A stretch of DNA of 6,935 nt, from the IMG/VR virus record IMGVR_UViG_2529293069_000009, positions 1 to 6,935 of that record; one strand, given 5' to 3'. Below, in pieces: positions 3,001-6,000 of the stretch. This stretch comes from a virus. Lineage: Duplodnaviria > Heunggongvirae > Uroviricota > Caudoviricetes. Position numbers: made by a program. Every line of letters starts with the position of its first letter. Position 1 is the first letter of the stretch.

Positions 3001-6000
3001 GAGGTGGTCTGCACCAGTGACTGCACCCCGAAGGTAACCCGCAGGCGGTCAATGTTCGCGGACGTAATGGTGCGCGTCACCGGCTTTGCCTTCGTCACTT
3101 CCACGCCCAGTGCGGTTTCAGCTCCGGAGGACTCAAAGCCTTCAGGTGGTGTCTGCTCCTGCTCCCCGGCGCGCCAGACCGCTGTCACACCATGTATCAC
3201 AGGATTACCGTCCGTGTCCGTCAGCGGGGTTTTGTTCACCAGGATACTCTGCAGCCCCTTCACCGGACCTTCAATCGGCCCTTCACCAATCGCATCAATC
3301 ACGCTCATCATCTGCGTGGACTTAAGATTGTCCTTTGCCTCAACCGGCGTGTGCGCCTTGCCGCCACCTTTGCCCATTGTCTCACCCTTTACTGTCTGAT
3401 GTCTGAATCTGTTTACGCACAAAAACGACAGGCATCCCGGAGGATGCCTGTGTCATGACGGAATAAAATTTCTGAATATCTTCACATTTTCTGTACGCCC
3501 CCGTGGCAGATATCATTCCCGGGCGTTACAGTTTTTTCGGGCCAATAAAAACAAAACTCCCTGTGGTTAATCTTCATTTTCTGTTCCCGCAGCCTTCCAT
3601 ACACTGCGGGATTTTTTTATGCTTTACCCCTGCCGCCCGATAACCACCACCTTCCCGTCACCGCCTTCATCACGGGTGCTGATGTCCTGGGAGATTCGCC
3701 GGGAGCCAACCAGCATTTCCCCGTAAGGCACCGGCATCGGGTTCCCCTGGGCAATCATGTTATCCAGCGAGGAAAAGTACGTGTTCTGTCTGCCGTTATC
3801 CGTGCTTTTGTACTCCGGTACTTTAGCCTTCGGGGCCAGCATCTGAGCCACACCACCCAGTATCATGCTGGCCCCCAGTGAAAACAGCATCGTGGTGGCA
3901 GAAAAACCACCGGCTGCCAGGGCTGAACCCCATAACGCCATTGATGCCCCGGCAGTGAAGAACGACCCCACGATGGCCGCCGCCCCCAGCACAATCTGCA
4001 GTCCGCCCTTTCCGGCTCCGGCCAGTCGCGGCACAATATGGATGACCGTTCCCTCACCCAGAGGTTCGTGAAGACGGGCGTACACCGCCTCCGGTGCCGT
4101 GTCCTCACCGCAATACGTATCTGGTACCAGCCTTCGTTCATCTGACGGCGGAATCCCGGCACCTGTAACGACAGCGCCCGGATGGCTTCCGCTGCCGTGT
4201 TCACATACAGGCTGAGGCGGCGGCCAAATCGTTGTAAATCCCCGTGAAGGCAGATACGTGCCAGTGGCGGTGACGCCAGGCTGAATGCGTTCGTCGTTGC
4301 CATTTTTCGGAATACCTCTCCCGTTTACTCAGTTGTTCAGGCAGATGGTGAAGCAGCTCACCGTTGCCGCAGTAAATGGCGGCATGGTTCGGTACCGAAG
4401 CACCAAAGCAGCACAGCAGAATATCGCCCGCCTGTGCAGAGGACAGGGGCACCCGGTAAAAGCCGGTGACCGCCATATTGTCCAGGTAAAGGTTCTGACC
4501 GTTGCGCCACCAGTCATCCCCGCGATGAAAATCCGGCATTTCAGTCCCCGCCAGATGGTATGCATCCCGGAACAGGGTGTAACAGTCCGTCACCCCGTGC
4601 TCAAAGCGCCGTCCCGTCAGGTGCGGCACGCAGCGGAATTTGTGAATGTCACCCCGGCAGACCAGCCACCAGGGCAGTGCGCTTTTTATCTGCAGCCGCC
4701 GGTCAGCCTCGCTCAGCCAGGGCAGACCACCGGGATGACTGTGGACCAGTGCCACAATCTCCCCCTGCATCTCTGCCCGCAGCCAGTCTTCCGGTGCAAT
4801 ACGAAAATACGCCTCCGGCTCTGCAGAGATATTCACACAAGGGATATACCGCTCCCCCTCCGGCGTGCTTACCACGAAGCCGCACGACTCCGCTGGCGCA
4901 CATCGCCGGGCGTGCGCCAATATATTGCTATAGAGCATGAGAACTCCTGATAAAAAACCCAGCCGAAGCTGGGTCATTTCGTTGGCAATCTGTTAGTAGT
5001 GATGTAGTGAAGGAGGTAATTCTTAGTTCTTAAGCCTTACCCATGCGGAAAGATTCGTTGGTCCGTCTGGCTCATTAATATCAACATCTCGTGTGTGATT
5101 GATTAAAACGTCTCTCGCCATTCCAATAACATACGAGAACTCATGACCGTAGTTGTAACATCTGCCGGAATAGTTCGATTGAATTTGCTTTAGCGCTGGA
5201 TACAATTCGCGGAATAATGCCTGTGAGCGGTTGGCATAATCCCATAGCCATACAAGGCTGTTTGCTTCTTTTGCGGAAAGCTCGTTGGTGCTCTTCTCTT
5301 GTTTGCCGATTAACTCTCCTTCAAGCGGAACGCGAGCAGCAAGTGACAGAGCTTCGGTAAACTGCTCCTCGCTGATTTCTTTGTATGAACACCCAAAATG
5401 AGATTTCAGTGACGACCACATGGTGATCATCGCCTTCGCCTGTTTTTCTTTTGGCAGAGACTGACCGCGACTCATGACGAGTTGTTTAATGGCTTCCTGC
5501 TGTTCAGTGGTGATTTTCCCCGGCAATGCCTTTTTAGCTTTGCGCGGGTTAATCACATGGCCTTTAGTCCAGTACTCGTAGAGCACATCGTCACACTCTT
5601 CCTGATACTGGATTACCTTGTCGCGGATTTCAGGGCGGACTTTGTTTGGTTGAATGCTTGAAAGCCAAGCCGCAAATTTACGAAAGGCAAGACATGTCAT
5701 TAACTGTTTACCGCCAGCAGAAGGTATTTCGATTTCCGAAATACCCTTGACAAACCTCTGTTTTAACTTAACAAATTGAGCAGCCCAAACCATCCCCATA
5801 CCTTCAACAACAGGCTTCATAGGAACATAAGGCTCATTGTTAATTCCAACCAAAAAGAGATTTGTTCCGTGGAATGGAACATTGATTGTGCGATCTGCAA
5901 TTGCTAAACTAGTCATATCAGTTTTCTCGTGGTTAACTGGTAATTTAGAAGCCTCAATGGTTGCAGCCATTGAGGCTTCGCTGTTTTTAGCGACCATTCG

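What the first reader, a model, noticed from the sequence alone, without database searches (positions are those of the whole stretch)
4100..4115. Tail assembly gene I is split by an apparent 1-nt frameshift
The N-terminal and C-terminal parts of the gpI-like protein lie in different frames, meeting at minus-strand ...TAC CAG ATA CGT ATT GCG / GGT GAG GAC ACG.... No slippery heptamer is present, so programmed frameshifting is unlikely. It is either a sequencing or assembly error, or a real inactivating mutation, which would mark this as a decaying prophage with a defective tail tip. I cannot rule out that I have misplaced the junction by a few bases.
Basis: partly seen in the sequence, partly recalled or inferred. 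Interest (0 to 1): 0.45.

Follow-up and report, generated by a model that had tools for sequence, protein, structure and literature searches.

The report
One-base gap splits tail gene I
A lambda-type phage tail gene (I) in this draft E. coli contig really is broken by one missing base, but the evidence favours a sequencing or assembly error in a repeated prophage region over a biological change, so it is ordinary.

Summary
On the minus strand, gene I (lambda gpI homologue) reads in frame from ATG 4303 to ATT 4114-4112 (codon 64). One base is then missing, between 4112 and 4111. The rest of gpI (GGT 4109 to stop 3626-3624) lies in another frame. Close relatives read ATT-CGC-GGT or ATT-GCC-GGT; the window reads ATT-GC-GGT. 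Restoring one C gives a 226-aa protein colinear with lambda gpI (E 3.9e-94).

The window is a whole 6,935-bp contig (AKLT01000027.1) of the draft assembly of E. coli TW06591. The deletion allele occurs nowhere else that I searched: 5,990 places in 5,426 complete E. coli genomes, and three contig collections.

The contig has no novel substitutions. Its only two novel variants are 1-nt indels. Both lie in the 1.1-kb zone where the contig alternates between two natural prophage types. K, the whole in-window part of J, and the L fragment are open, and there is no slippery site.

- Most likely (about 0.7): a consensus or assembly error in a multi-copy region.
- Possible (about 0.27): a real, very recent inactivating deletion.
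- Effectively excluded: programmed frameshifting.

Interest is low. Only read pile-ups or resequencing can settle it.

The parts
4112..4303 (-). Gene I, N-terminal part: codons 1-64 (MATTNAF...EGWYQIRI), in frame with ATG 4303. Some annotations use an alternative start at GTG 4204-4202.
   Evidence: ORF list and sequence. Pfam PF06805 matches profile positions 3-53 of 83 only.
4110..4112 (-). Frameshift point. One base (C) is missing between T4112 and G4111 relative to ATT-CGC-GGT. G4111-C4110 are what remains of codon 65.
   Evidence: Alignments.
3624..4109 (-). Gene I, C-terminal part: codons 66-226 (GEDTAPEAVY...VVVIGRQG) plus the stop, in the other frame. It holds the hydrophobic helices, the plug and the beta-strands of gpI.
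   Evidence: Translation. End-to-end alignment of the repaired protein to lambda gpI 8IYK_I. The domain description of gpI is from PMC11101478.
3863..4111 (-). Out-of-frame tail of the N-terminal ORF (AVRTRHRRRC...HWGPA, stop 3865-3863). This is not gpI sequence.
3624..4085 (-). The 153-aa ORF from GTG 4085. GenBank annotates it as 'tail assembly protein I' (EIO49856.1, E. coli TW06591).
   Evidence: It has no Pfam hit on its own.
4201..4938 (-). Gene K (JAB + NlpC/P60 peptidase, 245 aa), intact. Its last 103 nt overlap the long form of gene I.
3378..3623 (-). I-J spacer with two hairpins. One is terminator-like (3451-3428). The spacer carries the contig's second novel variant, an extra A at 3596-3595 in a hairpin loop (GTGTATGGAAGGC, against GTGTATGGAGGC or GTGACCGAAGGC in all other copies).
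   Evidence: The best match of this spacer in complete E. coli genomes is only 96.3%.
1..3377 (-). Gene J (tail tip/attachment protein). It is open for all 1,126 codons present and runs off the contig end.
   Evidence: The 3' 3,036 nt are 99.7% identical, without gaps, to LSU61 and 493/89.
3036..4111 (-). Zone in which the contig alternates between 'type A' alleles (as in CP169404.1) and 'type B' alleles (as in LSU61). Both novel indels lie inside it.
4112..6935 (-). Pure 'type A' segment (L fragment, Arc, Arc, Ant, K, start of I). It is 100% identical over 2,824 nt to CP169404.1 and to two other assemblies. A 2,823-nt query (window 4113-6935) is 100% identical to the complete genome of OkiPb01683. 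The perfect match ends exactly at the frameshift.

Best explanation
Gene I is an ordinary lambda-type tail tip gene. In this record it is broken by a one-base consensus error, not by biology.

The window is a 6.9-kb contig of a draft assembly. It covers the L-K-I-J tail module, which E. coli of this kind carry in several near-identical prophage copies. The left 2.8 kb of the contig is one natural prophage type (A). The right 3 kb is another (B). Across the 1.1 kb between them, the consensus alternates between A and B alleles.

In that zone the two types differ by a complex change, CGC against GCC. I infer that the consensus kept neither extra column, giving ATT-GC-GGT with one base too few. 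I infer a similar event in a hairpin loop of the I-J spacer that added one A.

**What is shown:** the missing base, its uniqueness, the make-up of the contig, and the absence of any other lesion.

**What is inferred:** that reads from two paralogous copies, or simple read errors, produced the indels.
For: 1. The window is the whole contig AKLT01000027.1 of draft assembly GCA_000267125.1, E. coli TW06591.
2. The region is multi-copy: the median is 2-3 places per genome, rising to 12-18. Another draft carrying the identical type A segment breaks its contig 158 nt upstream of the frameshift (L008).
3. The deletion allele is absent from 5,990 places in 5,426 complete E. coli genomes, where the best match is 80/81 with one gap. 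It is also absent from genome contigs, metagenome contigs and viral contigs. The intact allele is found in at least 120 viral contigs. Neither the 153-aa nor the 146-aa product is on record on any other contig.
4. Every one of the 6,935 bases is matched by some natural copy, so there are no novel substitutions. The contig nevertheless has two novel 1-nt indels. By my own knowledge, real E. coli mutations are roughly ten substitutions per indel, whereas consensus errors in repeats are mainly indels.
5. Both indels lie in the 1.1-kb A/B alternation zone, directly on complex A/B differences. There are none in the 2.8 kb of pure A (0 differences from CP169404.1) or the 3.0 kb of pure B (no gaps against LSU61).
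6. The lost base is not in a homopolymer. The six other frameshifted I copies in a 125-copy panel are, with one exception (a second indel in L073), homopolymer length changes.
7. The I-J spacer of the contig has no match better than 96.3% in complete genomes. By contrast, 74 of 94 natural copies have an identical twin in a small panel.
8. Nothing else in the module is damaged.
Against: - No reads were available, so the error is not demonstrated. I could not establish the sequencing technology of the assembly or its coverage here.
- Controls showed that natural copies of this region also look like A/B patchworks (9-32 switches; greedy tiling median 7 segments against 12 for the window). The patchwork itself does not prove misassembly, and the contig could be a genuine recombinant prophage.
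- Frameshifted I copies exist in other assemblies (6 of 125). Neighbouring J genes are annotated 'frameshifted' in two complete genomes. Real lesions of this kind are therefore not rare.
- No complete genome holds both the type A segment (at least 99%) and the type B J (at least 99%). That two such copies sit together in TW06591 is an assumption.
- A strict majority consensus of two alleles would normally keep one of the two gapped columns.
Confidence: 0.7

Rival explanations
1. The deletion is real. A very recent single-base loss in codon 65 of gene I inactivates it, in a prophage that may itself be a natural recombinant of types A and B. The N-terminal 64 residues would be made with a nonsense tail, and the virion-embedded C-terminal part would not be made. 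The prophage could then not build infectious tails unless gpI came from a co-resident lambdoid prophage. The indels might have arisen during recombination between the diverged copies.
For: - The frameshift is unambiguous in the deposited sequence.
- About 5% of I copies in a 125-copy panel are frameshifted.
- J is annotated as frameshifted in the complete genomes of F8492 and FORC_042.
- Natural copies are as patchy as this contig, so a genuine A/B recombinant is plausible.
- gpI is a structural part of the lambda tail tip: three copies plug the tube (PMC11101478). Its loss would therefore be disabling.
Against: - The allele is unique to one draft contig among thousands of copies.
- Two novel indels with no novel substitution in 6.9 kb is an unlikely spectrum for real mutation.
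- Both indels sit on complex A/B differences inside the alternation zone.
- The deletion is not at a homopolymer, where most real frameshifts and most of those seen in the panel occur.
- There is no other sign of decay in L, K, J or the moron genes.
Confidence: 0.27
2. The two-frame arrangement is functional. Either a programmed -1 ribosomal frameshift joins the parts, or the two parts are made separately: an N-terminal domain, plus a C-terminal 153-aa protein started at GTG 4085.
For: - Lambda tails do use a programmed frameshift elsewhere (G/GT; my own knowledge).
- GTG 4085 is preceded by GGAGG (sequence).
- The part of gpI resolved in the virion starts at residue 101 (PMC11101478). The 153-aa ORF would contain all of it.
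Against: - There is no X XXY YYZ heptamer anywhere in the N-terminal frame and no homopolymer near the junction.
- None of the homologues has the arrangement: 120 of 125 are single-frame and the exceptions break elsewhere.
- GGAGG is only 2 nt from GTG 4085, too close for a normal ribosome-binding site.
- The allele has no evolutionary persistence.
Confidence: 0.02

Closest known systems
Bacteriophage lambda tail tip protein gpI (Pfam PF06805 Lambda_tail_I; PDB 8IYK/8IYL/8XCG chain I)
   Same: After one base is restored, the protein is 226 aa and aligns residue 1-224 to lambda gpI 1-223 (E 3.9e-94). The gene order is the same, L-K-I-J, with the I start overlapping the end of K. The N-terminal PF06805 domain and the hydrophobic C-terminal half are the same.
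   Different: In this record the reading frame is interrupted at codon 65. An Arc-Arc-Ant moron sits between L and K, which lambda lacks. The I-J spacer is about 245 nt; from memory, lambda's is much shorter.
Intact I genes of EHEC/STEC lambdoid prophages (for example CP169404.1, FORC_042, OkiPb01683, phage BP-4795, LSU61)
   Same: They are 98-100% identical in nucleotide sequence. 2,824 nt upstream and 61 nt downstream of the gap are identical to CP169404.1.
   Different: They carry ATT-CGC-GGT or ATT-GCC-GGT and a single 193/226-codon ORF.
Programmed -1 frameshift of lambda tail genes G/GT
   Same: Same gene cluster, and two frames would have to be joined.
   Different: There is no slippery site, no conservation of the arrangement, and a different gene.
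Frameshifted tail genes in defective O157/STEC prophages
   Same: Single-base frameshifts in I and J occur in other assemblies.
   Different: Those are nearly all homopolymer length changes. This one is not: it sits on a complex polymorphism and comes with a second novel indel and no novel substitution.

Membership tests
Lambda gpI / PF06805 tail tip assembly protein I | N-terminal Lambda_tail_I domain above Pfam's gathering score | tested here: met
   The repaired protein scores 55.8 bits (cut-off 23.8) over profile positions 3-83. The actual N-frame ORF scores 38.7 bits but covers only profile positions 3-53 of 83.
Lambda gpI / PF06805 tail tip assembly protein I | End-to-end colinearity with lambda gpI, including the C-terminal helices, plug and strands | tested here: met
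   phmmer against PDB: 8IYK_I, E 3.9e-94, query 1-224 against 1-223. This holds only after one base is restored.
Lambda gpI / PF06805 tail tip assembly protein I | Position between K and J in an L-K-I-J tail tip module | tested here: met
   Called genes and Pfam families on the contig and in relatives.
Lambda gpI / PF06805 tail tip assembly protein I | A single uninterrupted reading frame | tested here: not met
   One base is missing between 4112 and 4111. 120 of 125 panel copies are uninterrupted downstream of this site; one further copy (L128) is broken only upstream of it.
Programmed -1 ribosomal frameshift | Slippery heptamer X XXY YYZ at the frame junction | tested here: not met
   None anywhere in the N-terminal frame from rc 2633 to 3071.
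Programmed -1 ribosomal frameshift | Two-frame arrangement conserved in homologues | tested here: not met
   All homologues are single-frame at this site.
Programmed -1 ribosomal frameshift | Downstream stimulatory RNA structure | not tested
   Not pursued, because the two features above failed.
Pseudogene in a decaying prophage | Other lesions in neighbouring genes of the module | tested here: not met
   J is open for all 1,126 codons present. K is identical to a widespread protein. The L fragment is open. The short Ant allele is shared by 9 contigs.
Pseudogene in a decaying prophage | The lesion is supported by the underlying reads or by independent isolates | tested here: inconclusive
   No independent sequence carries it. 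Reads cannot be inspected with these tools.
Consensus/assembly artefact in a repeated region | The region is multi-copy in such genomes and the record is a short draft contig ending inside repeated genes | tested here: met
   The 6,935-bp contig begins inside L and ends inside J. Each genome has 2-18 places.
Consensus/assembly artefact in a repeated region | The novel variants are indels confined to the zone where alleles of two copies are mixed | tested here: met
   0 novel substitutions and 2 novel 1-nt indels, both in window 3036-4111 and both on complex A/B differences.
Consensus/assembly artefact in a repeated region | Excess coverage and two read haplotypes at the site | not testable with these tools
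   Needs the TW06591 reads.

The most novel reading that the evidence does not exclude
The deletion is real, and the prophage still makes a working tail tip. This would happen because the 153-aa ORF from GTG 4085 contains everything of gpI that is resolved in the lambda virion, and it is translated on its own or gpI is borrowed from a co-resident prophage. That would show that the unresolved N-terminal domain of gpI is dispensable or can act in trans.

A related reading is that the two indels are scars of recombination between diverged prophage copies.
Probability: 0.03. Interest if true: 0.35.

Novelty: not a real feature. Interest (0 to 1): 0.08.

Why it matters
It matters little for biology. 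If the frameshift is an error, the only consequence is annotation. GenBank carries a truncated 'tail assembly protein I' (EIO49856.1) for E. coli TW06591. Prophage-completeness calls for this strain would then wrongly score a defective tail.

If it is real, it is one more defective lambdoid prophage in a pathogenic E. coli, which is a well-known situation.

The practical lesson is methodological. In draft assemblies, short contigs that span multi-copy prophage tail modules can be mixtures of copies. Isolated frameshifts in them should not be read as prophage decay without read support.

Tried and rejected
1. **Patchwork as proof of misassembly.** I first took the fine A/B patchwork (about 30 switches, some every 5-20 nt) as proof. 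Controls on 74 distinct natural copies showed 9-32 switches and similar tiling, so I dropped that argument.
ATT-GCG-GGT, with a G lost from a G run, does not exist in 5,426 genomes.
4. **The Ant nonsense codon as a second private lesion.** AAA to TAA at window 5025 looked like a sign of decay. It is a shared natural allele, found on 9 contigs including a complete genome.
5. **Literature searches.** Searches for the accession and for 'TW06591' found nothing usable. The sequencing platform is therefore not established.
6. **Strain names for two other frameshifted copies.** Looking up L084 and L090 fragments, to test for a batch effect, found no records.
7. **A complete genome holding both parents.** I looked for one with both type A and type B at 99% or more and found none.
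8. **Exact-junction scans.** Scans of genome contigs, metagenome contigs and viral contigs each returned 0 hits.

Full report
**What is in the window**

The window is, base for base, the reverse complement of the whole contig AKLT01000027.1 (6,935 bp) of draft assembly GCA_000267125.1. GenBank names its proteins as from Escherichia coli TW06591.

On the minus strand it carries, in order:
- the 3' part of tail gene L (6934-6605)
- a three-gene insert: an Arc-family gene on the opposite strand, a second Arc-family gene, and a P22-type antirepressor Ant
- K (4938-4201)
- I
- a spacer of about 245 nt
- J (3377-1), open for all 1,126 codons present and running off the end

**The observation**

Gene I starts at ATG 4303, overlapping the last 103 nt of K as in lambda. 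Some annotations start it at GTG 4204 instead. It matches gpI for 64 codons, up to ATT at 4114-4112. The frame then runs into nonsense sequence and stops at 3865-3863 (146 aa). The remainder of gpI, from GGT 4109-4107 to the stop at 3626-3624, is in another frame.

Aligning the DNA to intact relatives shows one missing base and nothing else. The window reads ATT-GCGGT. O157 F8492, FORC_042 and CP169404.1 read ATTCGCGGT (Ile-Arg-Gly). BP-4795 and LSU61 read ATTGCCGGT (Ile-Ala-Gly, as in lambda).

Putting one C back gives a 226-aa protein. It hits Pfam PF06805 over the full domain and aligns end to end with lambda gpI (PDB 8IYK chain I, E 3.9e-94).

The allele it implies (GCG-GGT, with one G lost) does not exist in 5,426 complete E. 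coli genomes. The lost base is therefore most simply the C of ATT-C-GCG, between window 4112 and 4111. It is not in a homopolymer.

**How unusual the allele is**

- An 80-nt query centred on the junction finds 5,990 places in 5,426 complete E. coli genomes. The best are 80/81 with one gap, so none carries the deletion.
- Exact scans for the deleted junction found nothing in one-genome-per-species contigs, in metagenome contigs or in IMG/VR viral contigs.
- As a positive control, the same pattern with three bases at the site hit at least 120 viral contigs. That panel carries CGC 129 times and GCC 9 times.
- The 153-aa product is on record only for this contig, and the 146-aa product not at all.

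**Make-up of the contig**

- From the contig end in L to the last base before the gap (2,824 nt), the window is 100% identical to CP169404.1 and to two other assemblies. I call this type A. A 2,823-nt query (window 4113-6935) is 100% identical to the complete genome of OkiPb01683.
- The 3' 3,036 nt (most of J) are 99.7% identical, without gaps, to LSU61 and 493/89. I call this type B; it has no Ant insert.
- In the 1.1 kb between them (window 4111-3036), the contig alternates between A and B alleles. Of 798 sites where A and B differ, or where the window differs from both, only four carry neither allele. These are the deletion, an extra A at 3596-3595 in a hairpin loop of the I-J spacer, and two J substitutions shared with strain PEC240.
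- The loop reads GTGACCGAAGGC in type A and GTGTATGGAGGC in type B. Only in the window does it read GTGTATGGAAGGC.

**A control that weakened my first argument**

I first read the fine patchwork as proof of a collapsed repeat. I then scored 74 distinct natural copies of the same 1.3 kb against A and B. They show 9-32 switches. Greedy tiling with exact matches needs a median of 7 segments, against 12 for the window. Patchiness is therefore normal for this region and proves nothing.

**What does hold**

1. Every base of the window is matched by some natural copy at the homologous position, so there are no novel substitutions. The contig still has two novel single-base indels. By my own knowledge, spontaneous substitutions in E. 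coli outnumber indels by roughly ten to one, and indels favour homopolymers. Two novel indels and no novel substitution in 6.9 kb is therefore an unlikely outcome of real mutation and a typical outcome of consensus error.
2. Both indels lie in the 16% of the contig where A and B alleles are mixed, and directly on complex A/B differences. The pure A and pure B segments have no indels.
3. The 271-nt I-J spacer has no match better than 96.3% among 2,943 places in complete genomes. By contrast, 74 of 94 natural copies have an identical twin within my small panel.
4. The region is multi-copy, at 2-18 places per genome. Type A and type B are 97-100% identical over about 700 nt of K just upstream. 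Another draft carrying the identical type A segment ends its contig 158 nt before the frameshift (L008).
5. Nothing else is broken. K is identical to a protein seen in 114 blocks of the collection. J and the L fragment are open. The Ant stop codon, which looked private at first (AAA to TAA at 5025), is a shared natural allele.

**Evidence on the other side**

- Frameshifted I copies are not rare: 6 of 125 panel copies. With one exception (a second indel in L073), they are homopolymer length changes.
- J is annotated 'frameshifted' in two complete genomes.
- No complete genome holds both parents at 99% or more.
- I could not inspect reads or establish the sequencing platform.

**Programmed frameshifting**

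The N-terminal frame has no X XXY YYZ heptamer anywhere, and no homopolymer lies near the junction. No homologue shares the arrangement. This reading is excluded for practical purposes.

**What a real deletion would mean**

Cryo-EM work on lambda shows three gpI copies inside the tail tip. Residues from 101 onward form two hydrophobic helices, a plug that closes the tube, and strands threaded through gpJ. The N-terminal domain is not resolved (PMC11101478).

The break at codon 65 would cut the N-terminal domain and leave the whole structural part untranslated. The exception would be translation from GTG 4085, whose GGAGG lies only 2 nt upstream. Such a prophage would need gpI from another resident prophage to make tails.

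**Verdict**

| Reading | Probability |
|---|---|
| One-base consensus or assembly error in a repeated prophage tail module of a draft genome | about 0.7 |
| Real, very recent deletion | about 0.27 |
| Functional two-frame arrangement | about 0.02 |

The gene is an ordinary member of the lambda gpI family, and interest is low. The decisive test is the read pile-up at 4105-4118 and 3590-3600, or resequencing with primers anchored in Ant and in the type B end of J.

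Noticed in passing
window 5023-5025 (minus strand; end of the Ant gene, 5023-5916/5997): Ant ends 9-10 codons early through AAA to TAA (...WVRLKN* against ...WVRLKNKELPPSLHHY*). It looked private against the first four relatives. It is in fact a natural allele, found on 9 contigs including complete genome CP169404.1 and several Logan assemblies.
   Followed up: yes
window 5023-6588: A three-gene insert sits between tail genes L and K, where lambda has nothing: an Arc-family gene on the opposite strand, a 57-aa Arc-family gene, and a P22-type antirepressor. 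It resembles an immI-like module. It is present in type A prophages and absent from type B (LSU61).
   Followed up: partly
window 3378-3623: The I-J spacer of about 245 nt holds two hairpins. One is terminator-like (3451-3428, followed by a T run). The other (about 3613-3583) carries the contig's second novel variant, an extra A at 3596-3595 in its loop. The two stems differ between prophage types by paired changes (GGCATCC/GGATGCC against GGCACCC/GGGTGCC).
   Followed up: partly
whole window: The contig joins a segment 100% identical to prophages of OkiPb01683 and CP169404.1 (L to the start of I) to a J gene 99.7% identical to those of sorbitol-fermenting O157 493/89 and LSU61. No complete genome in the collection holds both at 99% or more.
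   Followed up: partly
loci L043, L073, L084, L090, L108, L128 (IMG/VR contigs): Six of 125 other copies of gene I carry frameshifts. With one exception (a second indel in L073), these are length changes of short homopolymer runs (C4 to C3, G2 to G3, T5 to T4, G5 to G4, CC to C). I could not tell whether they are real or are errors of those assemblies.
   Followed up: partly
L001 4437-7722 and L002 4434-7719 (complete genomes F8492 and FORC_042): In two of the closest complete-genome relatives, the neighbouring J gene is annotated as a frameshifted pseudogene, while I is intact.
   Followed up: no
window 4201-4303: Gene I is annotated with two different starts in relatives. One is ATG 4303 (226 aa, overlapping K by 103 nt, as in lambda). 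The other is GTG 4204 (193 aa, a GTGA overlap with the K stop). The frameshift breaks both versions.
   Followed up: no
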